DNA of 64,000 nt, taken from positions 32,001 through 96,000 of the IMG/VR virus record IMGVR_UViG_3300029288_000079, one strand, 5' to 3'. Below are positions 2,939-41,762 of this stretch, piece by piece; position 1 is the stretch's first letter, and every line of letters begins with the position of its first letter. Both the position numbers and the translations under genes were made by a program. The notes below the pieces were generated by a model, which was not told the DNA's origin, did not search any database, and saw only the letters and a list, made by a program, of their open reading frames with translations. Source of the stretch: a virus (lineage: Duplodnaviria; Caudoviricetes).

Positions 2939-3094
2939 ATTAAATTCCTTTTCATTATTCTATCTCCAAAATAAAAATAAAAACTGCAAATCGTTACCAT
3001 GTTTTATAGATTCAACCAACTCTGAGTATCCATTATCATTTTCCCTTCTATTTATTACTCAATTCAGCGTTCTATGTACTTACATGTTATGTCG

Positions 3095-3508
3095 TCATTG
3101 CTCATTTTTAGATACGCTTTGTGGCACTTCTTTTTCCGCTAAGAATTTTTGGATTATCTCTTCAACCTTTTCACCTACTGGATCACTCGTGTACCAACGA
3201 ATAAGTTTCCCAATCTTAGAGGCATAGTTCACCTCGTTTGTCGTGCTTTTCCCGATGTAATCATTTCGGTTCACAACAAACACTTCATCACAATCATCAA
3301 TCTTGCGGAAGTGTAATTCATCCATCGCGGTTGCAACGCTTTCGTGTTCGGCGATATGGTCAGGGATTCCCCTTGCATACCATATCGGCAATAAATGAAG
3401 TCCATTTGTTATTTTGTGTTCATCGCGCTCTATGAACCATGCACAAACAGCCATCACATCCACAAATCTTGAAGAACCACACATTACAACTCGTTTTGGT
3501 TTTTCCAT
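3095..3508 (-). CDS. Nucleoside 2-deoxyribosyltransferase-like (DUF4406-type) protein
   Basis: CGSSRF...LHFRKIDDCDEVFVVN...YIGKSTTNEVNYA. Start at 3508 has a GAGGA SD. Confidence 0.65.
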   Translation of the reverse strand: MEKPKRVVMCGSSRFVDVMAVCAWFIERDEHKITNGLHLLPIWYARGIPDHIAEHESVATAMDELHFRKIDDCDEVFVVNRNDYIGKSTTNEVNYASKIGKLIRWYTSDPVGEKVEEIIQKFLAEKEVPQSVSKNEQ

Positions 3509-3552
3509 ATTTTCCTCAGTGCCACAAAGCGTTAAAAGTAGATGCAATGCGA

Positions 3553-3952
3553 ACATAACCATGTGGCCAAGCTGACCGAATCAGCCAAATGCAAAATTCA
3601 TTGAGTTAAACGCCCTTCAAAATCAGTCTGCAAATGTCTTGTACTAATTCCTCTTCTGCCATTCTCAATTCTTTTATTTTTCTTTTATCCATTCTTGTTA
3701 ATGCCCTTAAGGCAGAGTGAAGCAATTCATGTATTAAAAAGTCCTTCGGTTCTTTTGTCTTTGTTCCCCATCCATAAATTATTGATCGTTTATTCCTCGG
3801 ATGAATAGAACATTGCGCTCCATACTTACTTGCACATTGGTATGTTATTTTCCAGTCTTGTAATATTCTCAGTTGGCTCTTTAGGGCGTTTAACTTTTTC
3901 TTACTCATTTTGAACGTTTCTCCTTCGGCAGTTTAGCAACCATCCGTTACGC
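3553..3952 (+). repeat. attC-like site A with a gene-containing loop
   Basis: Left arm ACATAAC-CATGTGGCCAAGCTGACCGAA (from 3553); right arm TTCGGCAGTTTAGCAACCATCC-GTTACGC (to 3952). Confidence 0.6.
3606..3908 (-). CDS. Hypothetical protein with HExxH motif
   Basis: LIHELLH...EE resembles a minimal zincin; GGAG SD; lies inside attC-like site A. Confidence 0.6.
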   Translation of the reverse strand: MSKKKLNALKSQLRILQDWKITYQCASKYGAQCSIHPRNKRSIIYGWGTKTKEPKDFLIHELLHSALRALTRMDKRKIKELRMAEEELVQDICRLILKGV

Positions 3953-4113
3953 GGTCGCGGTAAAGCGTGCAATTGCTTCAATTTTTTTACACACTTTCTT
4001 TTCTCAACTGTCCAGAATTTTATACAACTGTTAGCTAAGGCAATCTCTCTCCGTGCGGTTTTGATAGTTTTTTTTCTCTTTTCTATCTTATTCATCTTAA
4101 ATTCCTTTCGCAA
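3901..4113 (-). CDS. Small basic hypothetical protein
   Basis: Likely start MNKIEK after AAGGA; C-terminus is read through the right arm of site A. Confidence 0.5.
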   Translation of the reverse strand: MRKEFKMNKIEKRKKTIKTARREIALANSCIKFWTVEKRKCVKKLKQLHALPRPRNGWLLNCRRRNVQNE

Positions 4114-4203
4114 TTACATGCTCACTAAAATGTTAATTGATTTATTTGTAAACATTTTCCTGCTTAACGAAAAAGTTCTCGTTTTGTCCATTGTCATAAT
4201 TTC

Positions 4204-4521
4204 CTATAAACTATTTTTATCTTCATCCATTAATGTGCCGGTAGAATCAATACGCTGGATAGGTATTATTGTGCCGAATATTTTGCTAATTTCTTCTTTG
4301 GATGAATAATAGTAATCACTTATTGCCATATTCCCGAATAGACTATTATATACCCAGCGATATTTCATTACTTTCTTTTTAGGCATAGTAAACGTCTCTT
4401 CTTTTTGACCGACGAATTGCCATAAGGAAGGGCCTCCTTCTACATGCGCTCTATCATCTTCTGAATTAGGTGTTACATAATGGTAAAGCCCATTTCTATG
4501 TAAATATGCATTTACTAACAT
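4204..4521 (-). CDS. Hypothetical protein
   Basis: AAGGAG SD; overlaps upstream gene. Confidence 0.6.
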   Translation of the reverse strand: MLVNAYLHRNGLYHYVTPNSEDDRAHVEGGPSLWQFVGQKEETFTMPKKKVMKYRWVYNSLFGNMAISDYYYSSKEEISKIFGTIIPIQRIDSTGTLMDEDKNSL

Positions 4522-4733
4522 GGTATTTCTCCTTTAATTGGTTCATTAATTCTTGCCAAAAGCCATAGCAATCCACTAATTATCAACATTGCTCCACAAC
4601 TCGACCAATGATCTATTTTCATTTCTACACTTATGTTGCCGAAAGACCATATCAGCGTTTCTATGGCTACGGATACACCCATAAATATCATTCCATATAA
4701 GAAAGAAATTATTCTGTGTTCGTTTAGTTCCAT
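4515..4733 (-). CDS. Small two-TM membrane protein
   Basis: Two hydrophobic segments; ATG at 4733 just inside the R'' of site C. Confidence 0.55.
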   Translation of the reverse strand: MELNEHRIISFLYGMIFMGVSVAIETLIWSFGNISVEMKIDHWSSCGAMLIISGLLWLLARINEPIKGEIPC

Positions 4734-4754
4734 AATGTTCTCTGTTCGCAAAAA

Positions 4755-4839
4755 ATATAACCAAAGTTTCAAGTTGACCGAATCAACTTGCGTTTTTTAT
4801 TCTAACCTTTCAGCACGGCAGCTTAACCATCCGTTAGAC
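4755..4839 (+). repeat. attC-like site C (85 bp, canonical size)
   Basis: R'' ATATAAC, L'' region TTTCAAGTTGACCG, L' region CGGCAGCTTAAC, R' GTTAGAC. Extra C and A in the left arm match the extrahelical-base pattern. Confidence 0.78.
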
Positions 4840-4847
4840 ATATGTGC

Positions 4848-5195
4848 TCACAGTCCCGCTATAACGCATTCGTCACACACCCGCGTTTTGCCTGTATCAC
4901 TTCTGTCTTGTTGATTTACTACATATCCATAACTCGATCCACAGACATCACAAGTATGTGCCGGACAAAACGCTATGTGCGGTTGTCCTAATTCGTATTC
5001 CACTCCACAGTCAGGACACTTCGTTAATCGCGCACTGCCTAACACGTTGCTCAAGCTGACTGGCGTCAGCTCGTTTTTGTTAAGTATTTTTTCTATTAGG
5101 TCGGCAGCGTCGTAATATCCATTTCGGTTTGCTAAATCCATTGTGCTTCGTAATTGTTCGGTTAAACTTCTTTGGTCATTCATGTCTTGTCGCAC
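4848..5195 (-). CDS. Zinc-finger-containing hypothetical protein
   Basis: CPDC..H..C..H.CDVC..CDEC; AAGGA SD; N-terminus lies within the loop of site D. Confidence 0.65.
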   Translation of the reverse strand: MRQDMNDQRSLTEQLRSTMDLANRNGYYDAADLIEKILNKNELTPVSLSNVLGSARLTKCPDCGVEYELGQPHIAFCPAHTCDVCGSSYGYVVNQQDRSDTGKTRVCDECVIAGL

Positions 5196-5242
5196 TTTAT
5201 TTCCTTTCTGTTTACGCCAGCAGCTTCGCTTAATCGTTGGGT
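5037..5242 (+). repeat. attC-like site D (206 bp)
   Basis: GCCTAAC-ACGTTGCTCAAGCTGACTGGCG pairs with CGCCAGCAGCTTCGCTTAATC-GTTGGGT, leaving a bulged A. Confidence 0.72.
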
Positions 5243-5250
5243 GGACGCGA

Positions 5251-5409
5251 TCAATAATCTTCTTTTATGCGTTCATATCGTTCATCCAGTTCCAGAAGGA
5301 CTATAAGTTTATCAATTATTTCTTTCCTTCCAGTTCGTTTACCATTTTCAAACATTGAAAGTTCTCGTTTTGTCCATTGTTTTACTTTTATAGGCTTTAA
5401 TTTTCCCAT
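5251..5409 (-). CDS. Small hypothetical protein
   Basis: GGAGG SD (overlapping R'' of site E) precedes ATG at 5409. Confidence 0.55.
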   Translation of the reverse strand: MGKLKPIKVKQWTKRELSMFENGKRTGRKEIIDKLIVLLELDERYERIKEDY

Positions 5410-5415
5410 CTTTTC

Positions 5416-5545
5416 CTCCAACCAGCAACTCAAGCTGACGTGATGAGCGTTTTACGTTCTTCCGTTTCAGTTGTAATTCATTATCATATCGGTATTCATT
5501 CATGCTTCAAGTCTTTTCCATGTGCAGTTTATGTTGCCGTTAGGC
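5416..5545 (+). repeat. attC-like site E (130 bp)
   Basis: CTCCAAC-CAGCAACTCAAGCTGACG ... TGCAGTTTATGTTGCC-GTTAGGC. Confidence 0.7.
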
Positions 5546-5731
5546 TGGTGGCACTTCTCTGTACAAGCTCGCAATCAATAACCTATCCTCGTGTTTCGGG
5601 TTTTCTTTTTCGTCATTAACCACTGCAAACCAAGTGCCTGCAAATTTTTCCAGTCGCACAAATTTAACAGGGCAAGTACCATACCATAGCACTGTACCTT
5701 TTTTCATAAATCTTGCGTCCTTAAATTTCAT
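5540..5731 (-). CDS. Small hypothetical protein
   Basis: AAGGAG SD before ATG at 5731; TAA stop is inside the R' box of site E. Confidence 0.6.
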   Translation of the reverse strand: MKFKDARFMKKGTVLWYGTCPVKFVRLEKFAGTWFAVVNDEKENPKHEDRLLIASLYREVPPA

Positions 5732-5762
5732 CGCTGTTCTCCTTTTTATAAAATGTGCCACC

Positions 5763-5795
5763 GCCTAATACGGCTTCAACTTTGACAGAATTAGC
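5763..5795 (+). repeat. Degenerate attC left arm (site F)
   Basis: GCCTAAT-ACGGCTTCAACTTTGACAGAA; AAC mutated to AAT, no convincing right arm. Confidence 0.45.
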
Positions 5796-5880
5796 TTTGG
5801 TACGTTTGTCCATATCTTTTGATTTTTTCATTGATTCGCTCCCCTCCTGTTAGTAGTTTGCATATTGTATCGGCTTATCA

Positions 5881-7404
5881 TCATCCTAGTTCCTTTGCTA
5901 ATTCTTCTAATGTGCATTTGCTTACGTCACGTTCTATTAACTTAAACTCAGGCTCCGACTTATAAATCTCCAATCTCCTTTTAGAATGCTTTGAAATATA
6001 CCTAACATCATGATAAAAGTCAATAATTCCACAAGATATTTTTCCTTCTGCAGCCGTGATAGATCTCATACGCTGTAATGTAGAAATACTACTCAATCCT
6101 CCGGCAGCATTTATAGTAAAATCTAAACTTAACAAATCTATACCCTCCTCAAACAATGTTGATATACAGCACATAATCTTTTTTTCACGTATTTTTTGAA
6201 TAACATCAACTCTTCTATCAGTCTTATCTTTTCCAGTCAAAACTACAGAATTTTTTATGGCCTTGTGCAAAACATTGGCATGATAAATTGTATCAGTTTG
6301 TATAATCACAGACTTATTATTATTATTCAAAGACATAACCAGTAAATTAATTAAACCTATAAAAAATTTATTTTCAACTACTGCTTGTTTATAAACTGTA
6401 GGATATGCTGCATCAATATCAAATTTTGGTAATTTATAAAAATATATTGTAGGACGTAATAAAAAACCCTCTCTAATAAGCTCTGAATATGTTACAGTAT
6501 GAATTATATCACCAATAGCTTCTTCTACCAACATATCTTCATCTTTATCTGCAAAAGGAGTAGCTGTTAGACCTATCTTTAATTCCGCATTAGTACATTT
6601 ACTCAGTACAAATTTACTCGTATTTGATAAACTATGATGAGCTTCGTCATAAAACACTAATTTAGCTTTTTTAAGTAATATTTGAATTAATATTTTTTGT
6701 TTCTTTTCTATTGAAAGCTCTTTATCTAGATCTTTTTCTTTTATTTCCTTACTATAAGCCGAAAAAGCACTTTGAACAGTAACTATAGTTATATCCTGTA
6801 TATCTACTTTACCATCCCCTACAATGCCTACAGTTATATCAGGAAGAAACTGATGAACTCTATCCAAAGTCTGATAAGCAAGATCTAAACTTCTACAGAA
6901 AAATACCACAGGAAATTTACGTTCCGAGTCCACTATCGCAATAAACATCAAAGTTTTACCTGACCTCATAGGTGCTTTTAAAATTCCAAAACGTTTTTCT
7001 ACACAACTTTGAGCTGCCAATAATTGATATGGTCTCAATTCATAAGTATTAGATTTTTGTACAAACTGCTCGGAACGAGGTTTATCAATAACATTAACCT
7101 CACAGCCATGTTTCTGCAATATATTAATAACTCTATTTAAAAGACCTACACGAAATGTTTTTGTTTTGGCATGATAGAGATGGTACTGACCATCCCATTG
7201 ATGATTTTGAAATTTTGGTGAGAAAAAGTAATTTTCAGCGTAAAAAGAAAGTTCATTATATATTATTGCTTCTAATTCTGTAGGAAGTTCTGTAAGAAAC
7301 CTGCACCACACAGAATAGAATTGTATATCTACTATAATATTAAACTGTTGATCTATGTCTTCAGAAATCTCTTCATGAAATATATCAACATCTATTTTTA
7401 CCAT
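5881..7404 (-). CDS. SF2 DNA helicase (UvsW-like)
   Basis: LRPYQ, APMRSGKT, DEAH, GLTATP, EEGID motifs. Confidence 0.88.
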   Translation of the reverse strand: MVKIDVDIFHEEISEDIDQQFNIIVDIQFYSVWCRFLTELPTELEAIIYNELSFYAENYFFSPKFQNHQWDGQYHLYHAKTKTFRVGLLNRVINILQKHGCEVNVIDKPRSEQFVQKSNTYELRPYQLLAAQSCVEKRFGILKAPMRSGKTLMFIAIVDSERKFPVVFFCRSLDLAYQTLDRVHQFLPDITVGIVGDGKVDIQDITIVTVQSAFSAYSKEIKEKDLDKELSIEKKQKILIQILLKKAKLVFYDEAHHSLSNTSKFVLSKCTNAELKIGLTATPFADKDEDMLVEEAIGDIIHTVTYSELIREGFLLRPTIYFYKLPKFDIDAAYPTVYKQAVVENKFFIGLINLLVMSLNNNNKSVIIQTDTIYHANVLHKAIKNSVVLTGKDKTDRRVDVIQKIREKKIMCCISTLFEEGIDLLSLDFTINAAGGLSSISTLQRMRSITAAEGKISCGIIDFYHDVRYISKHSKRRLEIYKSEPEFKLIERDVSKCTLEELAKELG

Positions 7405-37301: not shown

Positions 37302-40300
37302 TTATGTTTTCTCTAAGGGTAATTTATACAGGTTATAATAAGATAAATCCTTACTTCTAAAAACTCGTGGTTCAATAGCTTTTAAAGCAAATCCATAATA
37401 TTGAAAGTCTCCGGAACCTGAAGCAAATACAGAAACCTTAGACTGATAATAGTTATCCACTGATCCTGACGCTATAATTATAGGCTCAATATATCTAGGA
37501 GCATACTGAATAAATCTTTCTTTAATAGAATCAGGAGTAGATGCCCATGGAGATATCATTATTTCATCTATAGCTATATTATAAGAAGATGAATTATTAT
37601 TACTTATATATAATTCTGTAGGAGAATTAGATATATTCTGTGGATTTACAGTTATAGATCCAGAAGAAATATATTCTCCATCAACAAAAAACTTTGCTTT
37701 ATTATTTTTACATGTTACTGTAAAATAATGATATCTTCTTGGTTCTTCTAATAAATATGTTGATATAGATGCTGATGCGACACTAGTAGTAGATCCTGAC
37801 TTTGCAGTATAAGAAAAAGTTTCTTCATCAGAATCTATAGATATCAAATATCCATCTCCTACCAATGAAGTACCTGCAGCAGATGTAGTCTCGCGCTTCA
37901 AAATTATAAGTCCCGTACCGTCAGCAAAGGTTTTATCAACTCCATTTATTAAAAATTCTGCAGTCAGACCTGCATATGAGTCTATATCATTTGTAGTATT
38001 GCCCGTATAAATTAAACTACTATTAACACCATGATCAACTAAATTCATAGACAAAGCTAGTCTATCTGAAGATCTGCCTATTTCAAATATAGGGTTATTA
38101 GAAGAGCTAGATTTTTGTAGATTATTCATATTACCTGAAATATCCCAAAGTGAACTGCTGCTAAGCATTACCCAATGAGCCCCACAAGCTCCTTTTATTC
38201 CACTATATATAGAATTAATTCCAGTAATATCTATGATACATCCAGAACCAGAACCACCTGTAGTTATATTTCTTTTATTTACAACATATCCACTAGATCC
38301 ACTTGATAATAGAGTTACCTCTGAAACTATACCCCCAGAAATTGCTTTTACTTCAGTTATATTAACAGTACATCCTGATCCTGAACCACCTGTAGTTACA
38401 TTTCCTGTACTTACAGAATATCCACTAGAACCTTCAGAAATTAACTCTAATAAATTAACTTCTCCACCAGTATTTTTATTAATACCTGTTATATTAACAG
38501 TACATCCTGATCCTGAACCACCTGTAGTTACATTTCCTGTACTTACAGAATATCCACTAGAACCACTTGATAATAATGAAATAGAAGATACAACACCTCC
38601 AAGCAGACCCACATCAGGTGTTACCTCAGTTATATTAACAGTACATCCTGATCCTGAACCACCTGTAGTTACATTTCCCGATCCAACTGTATATTTCGAT
38701 TGCCCCCCATAATATAATGAAACTGATGTAGCAGAACCGCCACCATTAGCTTCAATACCTGTTATATTAACAGTACATCCTGATCCTGAACCACCTGTAG
38801 TTACATTTCCTGTACTTACAGAATATCCACTAGAACCACTTGATAATAAATTAACATCTACAATACTACCACCACCACTAGCTTCAATACCTGTTATTTC
38901 AATAGTACATCCTGATCCTGAACCACCTGTAGTTACATTTCCTGTACTTACAGAATATCCACTAGAACCACTTGATAATAATGAAACTGAACCAACTCCC
39001 CCTCCTGATCCTAAAGTTATAATAGACCCAGACATAGTTTGTGTAGGATCACTATACGAACAAAGTATTCCCGAAGCATAATATCCTGGTAAAATTGATG
39101 TTAGAGTAACTACAGGTAATGAACCTGTACCATTCGTAGCAATATGCTTTGTACCTTCATTTATTTTAGATACAATAGCATTAGCGGTATTTACTGCAGA
39201 AGAACCTGATCCTATAGTTAAACTATATCCCGTGTATCCTAAAAGATAAATAGAAGCTATTGATCCTGAACTACTAGTCCCATTTACTGTTATATTAAAA
39301 GATTCTTGTACACCACCACTACTAACAGTTAAAACCTTAGCTACAGCATCACCAGACCCACCCGTTAAAGTAATTAAATCATCTACAGCATAACCTGATC
39401 CACTAGCAGTTGTAGTAGAGTTTATAGCAGAAATTAAACCTGTTAAAGTACTGGCAGAAGCAACTTGTACAGTAGCATCACCAGAACCACCTGTAAGTGT
39501 AAGTATATCTCCTGTTACATAAAGTAATCCTGAAGCAGTTGGGGCAGAAGCTATAGAAGATACCTTACCTATAAGATTTGTTGCTGCTGACACATTAACT
39601 GTAGCATCTCCCGAGCCTCCTACAACAATAAGTCTATCATTAACTACATATCCTGTACCTGAAGCTGTGGGAGAAGAAGCTACTGATATAATTTTACCAC
39701 CACTAGCTTCAATACCTGTTATTTCAATAGTACATCCTGATCCTGAACCACCTGTAGTTACATTTCCTGTACTTACAGAATATCCACTAGAACCACTTGA
39801 TAATAATGAAACTGAACCAACTCCCCCTCCTGATCCTAAAGTTATAATAGACCCAGACATAGTTTGTGTAGGATCACTATACGAACAAAGTATTCCCGAA
39901 GCATAATATCCTGGTAAAATTGATGTTAGAGTAACTACAGGTAATGAACCTGTACCATTCGTAGCAATATGCTTTGTACCTTCATTTATTTTAGATACAA
40001 TAGCATTAGCGGTATTTACTGCAGAAGAACCTGATCCTATAGTTAAACTATATCCCGTGTATCCTAAAAGATAAATAGAAGCTATTGATCCTGAACTACT
40101 AGTCCCATTTACTGTTATATTAAAAGATTCTTGTACACCACCACTACTAACAGTTAAAACCTTAGCTACAGCATCACCAGACCCACCCGTTAAAGTAATT
40201 AAATCATCTACAGCATAACCTGATCCACTAGCAGTTGTAGTAGAGTTTATAGCAGAAATTAAACCTGTTAAAGTACTGGCAGAAGCAACTTGTACAGTAG

Positions 40301-41762
40301 CATCACCAGAACCACCTGTAAGTGTAAGTATATCTCCTACATTATATTTAGAACCCACAACAGTTGGAGTTGAATTTATAGATAATATCGATCCAGATGC
40401 AGTGCTTACTGTCTTAACCTTAACTGTAGCATCTCCAGAACCACCTGTAAGTGTAAGTATATCATCCACCTCATATAGAGATCCCTTAGCTGTAGGAATT
40501 ACATCTATGTTTGATATATTAAATGTTAAAGTACTGGCAGAAGCAACTTGTACAGTAGCATTTCCAGAACCACCTAAAACTGTAAGTATATTTCCTACAA
40601 CATACAGAGATCCGGCAGAATAAGGTGTTGGATTTATAGATGATATTGTTCCTGCTGAAGATAAATCTCCCTCTCCAGCCATCCATTTTATTGGCTCTGA
40701 AGATACTAATTGATAATAGACAGAATCGGGAATAGAAGATGATGCGTAAGATCTTAAATATCTATCATAGTAAGCATCATTCTTAGCCAAACAAGTCCAA
40801 TCTACTACACTTCCACTAGATTGATATATCAAATTAGATGTGTCTAAAACCTCACTTATAATATTATGATTATTACTATCTATCCCCCAAGTAGTTTCTA
40901 TACTATTGGTAAGAAATGAATTTTTCATTTCAAAATAATTAGAATTATATGTTGAGCCTGTAGCACGACTTAAAATATAATCACTCTTATAAAAAAATCT
41001 TGGAACAATATCTGCACGAATATTTTTTGAAATACTTTTTTCAATAGAGTCTTTAAAAGAAGAATCATTAATCAAGGAATAAATATATATGTCCAACCCA
41101 TTGTAAAATTGCTGTCTACTACGTAATTTTGTATTATGACCTAACTTAGTATATGTTACTTTAAAAGTATCCCCTACAGAAAAAGATATATCTGTAGGAA
41201 GAATAGTTCCTATACGAGATATTGATGTGTCAGATATAATAAATCCTTTTCCAATAGCTATAACAGATCCTGATTGATTCGACAAACACCAACCATCATA
41301 TCCAGACCTTTGACTATCAATGATATAGGGGGCCACTCCTAAGTAAGATTGACTAATTAAATCAATACCCATTTGTGTAGTGGCTACATTAGATGCTTCA
41401 TTTATTAATTTTAAGTTTGTACGGTAATCCTGAAGACCTGAATCATTATTATATGTCTCGTAATCTTGATTGCTTTGCTTTAATAATTGTGCAAGTACAC
41501 CAAAATTTTCATATATTTTAGTATTATCACTAGATCCTACAGGTATAGTCCTAACTTCATCAATATTAAGATCATTATATGTATTATTTATTTCTGTAGA
41601 AGCTGAGGATAACTGATCAGCACTCATATAAAGCATCTTGTAAATAGAAGTTCCAAGAATATTTACGGGATACCAACGAGGTGACAAATAAGAAAACATA
41701 TTTGCAACTATTCTATTAACTGAGCCTGCAGCATGATCAGACCATTTTAAGTATATTGCCAT
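37302..41762 (-). CDS. Large baseplate/fibre protein with Ser/Gly/Thr-rich repeats and a C-terminal LamG-like domain
   Basis: Directly after baseplate J; repeated SSGSSGYSVSTGNVTTGGSGSGCT units; YHYFTVT...FFVDGE...IDEIMIS. Confidence 0.65.
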   Translation of the reverse strand: MAIYLKWSDHAAGSVNRIVANMFSYLSPRWYPVNILGTSIYKMLYMSADQLSSASTEINNTYNDLNIDEVRTIPVGSSDNTKIYENFGVLAQLLKQSNQDYETYNNDSGLQDYRTNLKLINEASNVATTQMGIDLISQSYLGVAPYIIDSQRSGYDGWCLSNQSGSVIAIGKGFIISDTSISRIGTILPTDISFSVGDTFKVTYTKLGHNTKLRSRQQFYNGLDIYIYSLINDSSFKDSIEKSISKNIRADIVPRFFYKSDYILSRATGSTYNSNYFEMKNSFLTNSIETTWGIDSNNHNIISEVLDTSNLIYQSSGSVVDWTCLAKNDAYYDRYLRSYASSSIPDSVYYQLVSSEPIKWMAGEGDLSSAGTISSINPTPYSAGSLYVVGNILTVLGGSGNATVQVASASTLTFNISNIDVIPTAKGSLYEVDDILTLTGGSGDATVKVKTVSTASGSILSINSTPTVVGSKYNVGDILTLTGGSGDATVQVASASTLTGLISAINSTTTASGSGYAVDDLITLTGGSGDAVAKVLTVSSGGVQESFNITVNGTSSSGSIASIYLLGYTGYSLTIGSGSSAVNTANAIVSKINEGTKHIATNGTGSLPVVTLTSILPGYYASGILCSYSDPTQTMSGSIITLGSGGGVGSVSLLSSGSSGYSVSTGNVTTGGSGSGCTIEITGIEASGGKIISVASSPTASGTGYVVNDRLIVVGGSGDATVNVSAATNLIGKVSSIASAPTASGLLYVTGDILTLTGGSGDATVQVASASTLTGLISAINSTTTASGSGYAVDDLITLTGGSGDAVAKVLTVSSGGVQESFNITVNGTSSSGSIASIYLLGYTGYSLTIGSGSSAVNTANAIVSKINEGTKHIATNGTGSLPVVTLTSILPGYYASGILCSYSDPTQTMSGSIITLGSGGGVGSVSLLSSGSSGYSVSTGNVTTGGSGSGCTIEITGIEASGGGSIVDVNLLSSGSSGYSVSTGNVTTGGSGSGCTVNITGIEANGGGSATSVSLYYGGQSKYTVGSGNVTTGGSGSGCTVNITEVTPDVGLLGGVVSSISLLSSGSSGYSVSTGNVTTGGSGSGCTVNITGINKNTGGEVNLLELISEGSSGYSVSTGNVTTGGSGSGCTVNITEVKAISGGIVSEVTLLSSGSSGYVVNKRNITTGGSGSGCIIDITGINSIYSGIKGACGAHWVMLSSSSLWDISGNMNNLQKSSSSNNPIFEIGRSSDRLALSMNLVDHGVNSSLIYTGNTTNDIDSYAGLTAEFLINGVDKTFADGTGLIILKRETTSAAGTSLVGDGYLISIDSDEETFSYTAKSGSTTSVASASISTYLLEEPRRYHYFTVTCKNNKAKFFVDGEYISSGSITVNPQNISNSPTELYISNNNSSSYNIAIDEIMISPWASTPDSIKERFIQYAPRYIEPIIIASGSVDNYYQSKVSVFASGSGDFQYYGFALKAIEPRVFRSKDLSYYNLYKLPLEKT
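38871..40338. repeat. 643-bp direct repeat (38871-39513 = 39696-40338)
   Basis: Copies appear identical by eye; offset 825 bp, in frame. Confidence 0.9.

What the first reader, a model, noticed from the sequence alone, without database searches (positions are those of the whole stretch)
3553..3952. A 400-bp attC whose loop contains an entire gene
Seen: the left arm at 3553 (CAAGCTGACCGAATCAGC) is nearly identical to that of site C (CAAGTTGACCGAATCAAC), and the right arm (CGGCAGTTTAGCAACCATCCGTTA) resembles the right arm of site C (CGGCAGCTTAACCATCCGTTA). They are separated by the full 100-aa HExxH ORF. Site lengths across the array are 85, 130, 206 and 400 bp. Established: typical attC sites are about 55-140 bp. 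Inference: the variable loop acts as a second cargo slot, and size-limited tools would miss such sites.
Basis: partly seen in the sequence, partly recalled or inferred. Interest (0 to 1): 0.72.

Follow-up and report, generated by a model that had tools for sequence, protein, structure and literature searches.

The report
Gene-carrying attC site in phage
A 400-bp stretch of a large phage genome is one integron-type recombination site (attC) whose normally short central loop holds a whole small gene, held shut by a perfect 13-bp stem. The same design recurs in other phages, so attC sites can be far larger than the textbook range and are missed by size-limited search tools.

Summary

**What it is**
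- Window 2945-5880 is an integrase-less cluster of attC sites (a CALIN) in a 181.7-kb phage.
- Its sites belong to the attC family of complete integrons of Ignavibacteriota and Bacteroidota.
- The genes lie antisense to attC polarity.

**Site 3553-3952**
- It has both halves of one attC.
- Both arms find their best bacterial match in the same attC (L041:1983-2180).
- That homology stops exactly where a perfect 13-bp inverted repeat begins (3604-3616 / 3883-3895).
- The repeat encloses a full-length HExxH gene.

**Recurrence**
- Eight further expanded sites in five other phage contigs have a perfect clamp of 9-16 bp at the same offsets, each with a different sequence.
- Their loops are 160-468 nt and hold one or two genes.
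- Related frames carry unrelated cargo, and one clamp difference is compensated.
- None of 272 bacterial sites has a clamp.

**Limits**
- A covariance model of genuine attCs finds the 85-bp and 130-bp sites but not the 400-bp one.
- This site's arms are eroded.
- No phage record encodes an integrase.
- Recombination is untested.

The scan had already noted phage attC arrays with gene starts inside loops on other genomes. The clamp geometry is what this report adds.

The parts
2945..5880 (.). GC-richer accessory island, an integrase-less attC cluster (CALIN), inserted between the helicase gene and conserved ORF 2741-2938
   Evidence: GC is 0.36-0.46 against 0.25-0.33 in the flanks. The relative L003 has one unrelated small ORF in its place. 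All arm-profile hits of the 181.7-kb genome fall here.
3086..3092 (+). R' box GTTATGT of an eroded upstream site. Cassette 1 would run from 3087 to 3946.
   Evidence: It is 7/7 complementary to R'' ACATAAC at 3553-3559, and the complementarity extends to 13/16 (3086-3101 against 3544-3559, repeat I15).
3114..3128 (.). Left copy of a perfect 15-bp inverted repeat enclosing the cargo-side gene
   Evidence: repeat I3 (3114-3128 / 3518-3532, 100%)
3095..3508 (-). Cargo-side gene of cassette 1 (137 aa from ATG 3508), with no family match
   Evidence: ORF list. No Pfam or PHROG match.
3518..3532 (.). Right copy of the 15-bp inverted repeat
   Evidence: repeat I3
3553..3559 (+). R'' box ACATAAC (consensus RYYYAAC; one departure)
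   Evidence: Sequence. Aligned to model positions 1-9 of the attC covariance model.
3565..3578 (+). L'' arm GGCCAAGCTGACCG, with an extra C and an extra A (G and T on the bottom strand)
   Evidence: Pairs with 3926-3937 in the folds.
3579..3603 (+). Conserved loop-proximal part of the left arm, homologous to bacterial attCs
   Evidence: 89% identity over 3568-3603 to L041:1997-2032. Homology ends at 3603/3604.
3604..3616 (.). Clamp, left copy (AGTTAAACGCCCT); covers the stop codon of the HExxH gene
   Evidence: Perfect 13-bp inverted repeat (repeat I18). 0 of 300 shuffles reached it. Offset 50 nt from R'', as in the other expanded sites.
3606..3908 (-). HExxH gene (100 aa), probably a minimal zinc-peptidase-like protein, lying inside the attC loop
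   Evidence: 238 homologues by HMMER. H60, E61, H64 and E86 are invariant. The AlphaFold2 model has pLDDT 95; fold matches to selecase, jannalysin and IrrE are weak.
3883..3895 (.). Clamp, right copy (AGGGCGTTTAACT); lies within codons 5-9 of the gene
3896..3925 (+). Conserved loop-proximal part of the right arm. On the bottom strand it supplies the RBS (3919-3925, AAGGAGA) and the start codon (3906-3908).
   Evidence: Alignment to the bacterial attC L041; sequence.
3926..3937 (+). L' arm CGGCAGTTTAGC
   Evidence: 92% identity over 3926-3949 to L041:2150-2173. The same right-arm sequence type is seen in the short phage sites of L153 and L148.
3946..3952 (+). R' box GTTACGC (consensus GTTRRRY; one departure). 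The expected crossover lies between G3946 and T3947.
4755..4839 (+). 85-bp attC (site C)
   Evidence: Covariance model R1: 40.1 bits, E 5e-8, matched end to end.
5037..5242 (+). 206-bp attC (site B). Its loop holds the start of ORF 4848-5195, and it has no clamp.
   Evidence: arm duplex -17.7 / -18.5 kcal/mol
5416..5545 (+). 130-bp attC (site D)
   Evidence: Covariance model R1: 35.2 bits, E 7e-7.

Best explanation
The 400-bp element is one member of the attC family used by chromosomal integrons of Ignavibacteriota and Bacteroidota, carried in an integrase-less attC cluster of a lytic-type phage. The central, truly variable part of its loop has been replaced by a 292-bp block. That block is a complete accessory gene, read on the bottom strand, bracketed by a perfect 13-bp inverted repeat.

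**Shown**
- The R''-L'' and L'-R' halves are kept, together with about 25-30 nt of loop-proximal sequence on each side.
- Both extra bases that mark attC polarity are kept.
- The repeat lies at the position where conservation among bacterial attCs ends.
- The same geometry recurs in eight other expanded phage sites, with different clamp sequences and different cargo.

**Inferred**
- The repeat acts as a clamp. In single-stranded DNA it zips the base of the 266-nt loop, so that L''/L' and R''/R' can still meet.
- The site could then still be read by a host integron integrase, and the loop serves as a second cargo compartment beside the ordinary one (3095-3508).
- Once excised, cassette 3087-3946 would fold as a dumbbell: two gene-bearing loops joined by one rod.

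**Open**
- How cargo is exchanged: by the host integrase moving the whole site, or by recombination at the foot of the clamp.
- Whether this eroded copy is still active.
For: **The family is genuine attC**
- The left-arm motif hits at least 120 bacterial loci, mostly Bacteroidota and Ignavibacteriota.
- Two genomes with a full-length integron integrase (TIGR02249, 453 and 439 bits) carry 9-10 arm pairs in the 20 kb upstream. The arms are divergently oriented and none lie downstream.
- The layout matches a published attC oligonucleotide (PMC2117344).
- The bacterial sites show the published bottom-strand G:T bias: 1.12 against 0.14 (PMC5027507).

**The window belongs to it**
- Arm profiles built from bacterial sites alone hit only this island.
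- Covariance model R1 scores sites C and D at E 5e-8 and 7e-7.

**It is one site**
- Both arms have their best hit in the same bacterial attC, and homology ends at 3603/3604.

**The clamp is real and recurrent**
- The 13-bp perfect repeat was reached by 0 of 300 shuffles.
- Nine expanded sites in six phage contigs have perfect 9-16-bp repeats at offsets of 49-55 nt from R'', followed by about 30 nt and then L'.
- The longest inner perfect repeat in 272 bacterial attCs is 8 nt.

**Arms of expanded sites are cognate**
- Cognate arm pairs average -14.6 kcal/mol against -9.6 for non-cognate pairs; 0 of 5000 permutations did as well.
- Seven of eight expanded sites rank first.

**The loop behaves as a cargo slot**
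- Two sites share the same frame and clamp while one loop gene is replaced.
- Frames 73-79% identical differ in the clamp by a compensated C:G to A:T change and carry unrelated cargo.

**Folding**
- Single-strand DNA folds pair the arms and the full clamp in 9 of 9 sites on the top strand and 8 of 9 on the bottom strand. For this site there are 22 arm pairs and 13/13 clamp pairs on the bottom strand.
Against: - This site's arms are weak: the duplex is -10.5 (top strand) and -12.4 (bottom strand) kcal/mol, against a bacterial mean of -17.4 and -18.7. Its cognate rank is only 8th and 5th of 19.
- R'' and R' each miss the consensus at one position.
- No tyrosine recombinase is encoded in this complete 181.7-kb genome, nor in the five other phage records.
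- Nine contigs from several samples carry an identical copy, with 1 SNP in 1.2 kb, so there is no sign of ongoing cassette movement.
- Published work finds recombination falls as the loop lengthens when the site must extrude from double-stranded DNA (PMC5027507).
- The clamps have sharp edges and no wobble pairs. That could reflect a mechanical origin rather than selection for folding.
- The sample is small: nine sites in six contigs.
Confidence: 0.65

Rival explanations
1. Dead relic. An attC captured from a host integron was disrupted when a phage gene landed in its loop. The site no longer recombines, and the array persists only as ordinary phage accessory genes. The clamp is a by-product of the insertion event.
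For: - The arms are weak and the R boxes are off consensus.
- No integrase is present.
- Copies from different samples are identical.
- The phage sites have lost the bottom-strand G:T bias of working bacterial sites.
- The clamps have sharp edges.
Against: - Clamps recur at the same offset with unrelated sequences.
- One clamp difference is compensated.
- Seven other expanded sites keep strong cognate arms and both extra bases.
- No bacterial expansion looks like this.
Confidence: 0.18
2. RNA-level element. Arms plus clamp form a long-range duplex in the phage mRNA (the bottom-strand transcript) that encloses each gene, for processing, stability or control of translation. The attC ancestry would be incidental.
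For: - The genes are on the bottom strand.
- The RBS and start codon sit at or beside the clamp, and stop codons abut its other copy.
- A 15-bp repeat also encloses the neighbouring gene outside the attC.
Against: - The clamp offsets are tied to the attC boxes rather than to start or stop codons, whose positions relative to the clamp vary.
- The clamps contain no G:U-type pairs.
- In sites A, C and D the arm wobble pairs are G:T on the top strand, which is C.A in the mRNA.
Confidence: 0.1
3. A different, phage-specific recombination system cuts at the foot of the clamp helices, and the attC frame is merely its landing pad. Earlier notes of this scan describe helix-closed cassettes and arrays beside Xer-like recombinases.
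For: - Cargo differs from within about 5-10 nt inside the clamps.
- Two clamps contain R-box-like heptamers in cargo-side orientation: GTTAAAC / GTTTAAC here and GTTAGGC / GCCTAAC in L138.
Against: - No tyrosine recombinase is found in any of the six phage records.
- Only two of nine clamps carry the heptamer.
- One swap boundary lies at a gene overlap rather than at a clamp.
Confidence: 0.08
4. Two halves of two independently decayed attC sites that happen to flank a gene.
For: - The arm duplex of this site is no better than non-cognate pairs.
- Site C in the same array is of the same subfamily, so a hybrid is conceivable.
Against: - Both arms have the same best bacterial attC.
- The nested perfect clamp sits at the family-typical offsets.
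- No leftover halves are present.
- This scenario needs two complementary deletions, repeated in nine sites.
Confidence: 0.04

Closest known systems
attC sites of sedentary chromosomal integrons (here the Ignavibacteriota/Bacteroidota family; by analogy the Vibrio VCRs)
   Same: - The order R''-spacer-L''...L'-spacer-R' is kept.
- Extra bases lie on the L'' side.
- The R-box complementarity extends to the start of the cassette.
- The sequence is homologous to sites lying beside full-length IntI.
   Different: - L'' and L' are 347 nt apart, against published loops of 20-100 nt (PMC4889954) and whole sites of 140-202 nt in this family.
- A gene lies inside the loop.
- A perfect clamp is present.
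- Genes lie on the bottom strand, whereas 194 of 238 bacterial cassettes have the longer ORF on the top strand.
CALINs (clusters of attC sites lacking an integrase) in virulent phages, Qi et al. 2023 (PMC9892861)
   Same: Several attC sites in a phage with no integron integrase. That paper showed that phage attCs can be recombined by IntI1.
   Different: The sites described there were found with standard tools and so fall within the normal size range. It reports no gene inside a site, no clamp, and no uniform antisense polarity.
Foreign DNA inserted into attC sites (IS1111-attC elements and group IIC-attC introns; from my own knowledge, not checked here)
   Same: An attC interrupted by a block of DNA at a defined position.
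   Different: Those insertions encode their own transposase or reverse transcriptase. Here the insert is an ordinary small phage gene with a short perfect inverted repeat and no mobility gene.
Bacterial attCs of the same family expanded to 274-413 nt (L119, L033, L135)
   Same: Same frame, with loops longer than usual.
   Different: They are expanded by GC-rich mini-hairpins. They have no convincing gene and no clamp, and the longest perfect repeat is 5-6 nt.

Membership tests
integron attC site | Inverse core and core boxes RYYYAAC ... GTTRRRY at the two ends | tested here: inconclusive
   ACATAAC and GTTACGC each depart from consensus at one position. The AAC/GTT triplets are intact. Within cassette 3087-3946, R'' is 7/7 complementary to G+TTATGT.
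integron attC site | L''/L' pairing with extra-helical bases on the L'' side, which gives strand polarity | tested here: met
   AAGCTG[A]CCG pairs with CGG-CAGTTT, and an extra C precedes AAG. Polarity was calibrated on bacterial arrays.
integron attC site | Homology or model match to sites that lie in arrays beside an integron integrase | tested here: met
   Arm profiles. Best hits of both arms fall in one bacterial attC. The left half aligns to covariance model R1 over positions 1-52. Neighbouring sites C and D match the model end to end.
integron attC site | Short variable terminal structure (published 20-100 nt; whole site about 55-200 nt) | tested here: not met
   The site is 400 bp and holds a 303-nt ORF between L'' and L'.
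integron attC site | Recombined as folded single-stranded DNA by IntI | not testable with these tools
   Only predicted folds are available.
complete integron | intI gene with adjacent attI and promoter | tested here: not met
   No PF00589 or TIGR02249 match in the 181.7-kb genome.
CALIN (cluster of attC sites lacking an integrase) | Two or more attC sites close together with no integron integrase | tested here: met
   Four arm pairs plus eroded sites lie within 2.9 kb, and no integrase is present.

The most novel reading that the evidence does not exclude
Phages keep their own pool of integron cassettes in a dumbbell form. The attC's variable loop would be a true second cargo compartment, closed by a co-varying perfect clamp and still readable by host integron integrases. 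attC sites themselves could then carry genes. The known size range of attC would be an artefact of how sites are searched for. Loading genes into loops could also be a route by which new cassettes arise.
Probability: 0.3. Interest if true: 0.8.

Novelty: new variant of a known kind. Interest (0 to 1): 0.62.

Why it matters
- attC sites are defined as short hairpins, and detection tools assume this. A gene-sized loop with a dedicated clamp would widen the definition. It would also mean that surveys of integron cassettes undercount such sites, above all in phages.
- It gives a concrete architecture to test for how genes become attached to attC sites, which is an open question in integron biology.
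- It bears on how lytic phages of Bacteroidota-type hosts exchange accessory genes by drawing on the host's integron machinery.

Tried and rejected
- Rfam at a permissive threshold found nothing relevant.
- The INPHARED phage collection had no match to the region.
- A word-based protein search found only the query itself. The exhaustive HMMER search was needed.
- The exact 18-mer of the left arm in viral contigs gave mostly chance hits; 2 of 8 were real.
- Homologues of the HExxH gene lie in tight phage operons without arms, so no empty or flanked version of this site was found.
- The idea that the left arm plus the R'-like heptamer of the clamp forms a complete short attC was rejected, because no L' is present.
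- An apparent tenth clamp in L138 (11 nt, GT-rich) was dropped, because its left arm pairs with a right arm 135 nt away. The true partner has a 9-bp clamp.
- Cargo-side perfect repeats are not general: 1 of 7 phage regions and 2 of 229 bacterial regions have one of 11 nt or more.
- A search for the same frame and clamp in other viral contigs found none.
- The metagenome scan added no new clamped site.
- The fold search of the HExxH model gave only weak zincin-like matches.

Full report
**Setting**

The window is bases 32001-96000 of a 181.7-kb virus record that is rated complete. Between the stop of a UvsW-like helicase gene (5881) and a conserved small ORF (2741-2938) lies a 2.9-kb island. 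Its GC content is higher, 0.36-0.46 against 0.25-0.33 in the flanks.

A relative whose helicase is 82% identical has a single unrelated small ORF at this spot. All genes of the island lie on the minus strand, and none matches Pfam or PHROGs.

**The observation**

- R'' ACATAAC lies at 3553-3559, followed by a 5-nt spacer and L'' GGCCAAGCTGACCG at 3565-3578.
- L' CGGCAGTTTAGC lies at 3926-3937, followed by an 8-nt spacer and R' GTTACGC at 3946-3952.
- The 100-aa HExxH ORF (3606-3908), its RBS and its start codon lie wholly in between.
- The four site lengths, 85, 130, 206 and 400 bp, are confirmed.

The repeats are not chance.
- The left-arm 9-mer occurs exactly four times, all in the island and all on the + strand.
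- The right-arm 12-mer occurs exactly twice.

**What the repeats are**

A degenerate left-arm pattern hit at least 120 bacterial loci, mostly Bacteroidota and Ignavibacteriota and often several times per contig.
- Three of five genomes tested encode an integron integrase above the curated TIGR02249 cut-off.
- In two of those, the 20 kb upstream of intI holds 9-10 ordered left and right arm pairs, divergently oriented, with none downstream. That is the classical integron layout.
- The box order and spacing match a published attC oligonucleotide: GTCTAAC-AATTC-GTTCAAGC ... GCTTAAC-TCAGGC-GTTAGAT (PMC2117344).

Polarity was calibrated on the bacterial arrays.
- The longer ORF lies on the top strand in 194 of 238 cassettes.
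- G:T mispairs in the arms number 1.12 on the bottom strand against 0.14 on the top. This reproduces the published bias (PMC5027507).

The window's sites belong to this family.
- Arm profiles built from bacterial sites alone hit the whole phage genome only in this island, always on the + strand.
- A covariance model built from eleven attCs of the two complete integrons matches the 85-bp and 130-bp sites end to end, at E 5e-8 and 7e-7.

The phage encodes no tyrosine recombinase, so the island is an integrase-less attC cluster (a CALIN). Such clusters are already published for virulent phages (PMC9892861). Unlike bacterial arrays, the genes here lie on the bottom strand; this holds for 8 of 11 phage cassettes.

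**Is the 400-bp element one site?**

Four lines say yes.
1. Both arms find their best bacterial match in the same attC, L041:1983-2180. The left arm (3568-3603) is 89% identical and the right arm (3926-3949) is 92% identical. The left homology stops at 3603/3604.
2. Exactly there begins a perfect 13-bp inverted repeat, 3604-3616 / 3883-3895. None of 300 shuffles reached it.
3. No remnant of a complementary half-site lies beside either arm.
4. Predicted single-strand DNA folds of both strands pair the arms and the whole repeat.

A weakness is that this site's arm duplex is poor, -10.5 to -12.4 kcal/mol. It is no better than non-cognate combinations. The L-box extension looks like a decayed copy of the partner that its right arm requires.

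**The clamp is a recurrent design**

Arrays of the same family occur in five other viral contigs: L010/L012, L138, L148, L150 and L153. All have genes on the bottom strand and none has a tyrosine recombinase.

| Set | Site length |
|---|---|
| Bacterial sites | 140-202 nt in 295 of 307 |
| Phage sites | 89 to about 600 nt |

Every phage site longer than about 290 nt has a perfect inverted repeat of 9-16 bp.
- The left copy starts 49-55 nt after the start of R''.
- The right copy is followed by about 30 nt and then L'.
- The repeat sequences differ from site to site.
- The enclosed loops are 160-468 nt and hold one or two bottom-strand ORFs.

The control set looks different.
- In 272 bacterial sites the longest inner perfect repeat is 8 nt.
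- The few long bacterial sites are expanded by GC-rich mini-hairpins, with no clamp and no convincing gene.

The arms of the expanded phage sites are cognate.
- Cognate pairs average -14.6 kcal/mol against -9.6 for non-cognate pairs.
- None of 5000 permutations did as well.
- Seven of eight expanded sites rank first.

**The loop as a cargo slot**
- L138 and L148 share the frame and the clamp AGTAAATGCCGTGC, but one of the two loop genes is replaced precisely.
- L153 has a frame 73-79% identical. Its clamp differs by one change compensated on the other arm, and its cargo is unrelated.

So the clamp belongs to the site and the cargo changes within it. The replaced segment corresponds to the part of the bacterial loop that is not conserved in alignment A4.

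**The cassette as a whole**

R' GTTATGT at 3086 is perfectly complementary to R'' at 3553, extending to 13 of 16 positions. A second perfect repeat, 15 bp at 3114-3128 / 3518-3532, encloses the other gene.

An excised circle of 3087-3946 would therefore fold as a dumbbell with a gene in each loop. This step is inferred.

**The cargo**

The HExxH protein is full length and belongs to an unnamed family of about 100-aa proteins.
- HMMER finds 238 homologues at E of 0.001 or better.
- H60, E61, H64 and E86 are invariant.
- The structure model is confident, pLDDT 95.
- Fold matches to minimal zinc peptidases and IrrE are weak.
- Its closest homologues sit in tight phage operons without attC arms.

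**Tools and size**

With all filters off, the covariance model aligns the left half of the 400-bp site (10.9 bits). It pairs it with spurious sequence and finds the right half separately at 3.2 bits. A size-limited search therefore misses the site.

**What remains open**
- Nothing here shows recombination.
- Nine contigs from several samples carry an identical copy, so there is no sign of recent movement.
- The read-level test could not be run.
- The sharp-edged, wobble-free clamps might be footprints of an insertion mechanism, or RNA-level stems, rather than aids to DNA folding.

**Earlier notes of this scan**

Notes on other phage genomes had already reported attC-type arrays with antisense genes and gene starts inside loops, and helix-closed cassettes.

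Noticed in passing
window 4118-4172; L010 about 6850-6900; L012 about 590-645: A roughly 55-nt intergenic element is nearly identical between this phage and two unrelated viral contigs. On the gene strand it reads TTTACA-N17-TTTAGT. It lies upstream of different genes in each, so it looks like a portable promoter.
   Followed up: no
window 4172-4202 and 5358-5388: A 31-nt direct repeat, 90% identical. One copy is the start region of the gene at 5251-5409 and the other is an apparently decayed copy. This hints at past duplication or recombination between cassettes.
   Followed up: no
L010 8473-8717 and 10600-10840: A duplicated cassette holding a 56-aa gene, 91% identical. The shared segment starts at ATCC|GTTGGGC (the R' box) and ends at or within R''/L''. 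The cargo between two attCs is therefore shared, while the attC loops differ.
   Followed up: partly
window 3604-3616 / 3883-3895; L138 clamp of the 441-nt site: Two of nine clamps contain perfect R-box heptamers: GTTAAAC/GTTTAAC and GTTAGGC/GCCTAAC. They are oriented as if the loop were the cargo side of an R box. This is more than expected by chance, but it is not general.
   Followed up: partly
L153 1799-1934 (minus strand); L148 1259-1396: Even short (136-138 nt) phage attCs carry an RBS and an ATG on the bottom strand just after L'. Phage loops seem generally adapted to start translation.
   Followed up: partly
L135 3503-3915; L033 5444-5762; L119 1089-1362: Bacterial attCs of the same family are expanded to 274-413 nt by nested GC-rich mini-hairpins that look like small palindromic repeats.
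   Followed up: no
protein P0003: A 5140-aa protein matches the N-terminal half of the HExxH family in 19 separate stretches.
   Followed up: no
window 39356-40450: A motif search turned up near-identical short matches spaced 129 and 825 nt apart (39356/40181; 39485/40310/40439). This suggests a periodic repeat inside a gene.
   Followed up: no
window about 5770-5855: A fifth, eroded attC: R''-like GCCTAAT, L''-like TTCAACTTTGAC and R'-like GTTAGTA. A 36-aa ORF starts in its loop, just downstream of the helicase gene.
   Followed up: no
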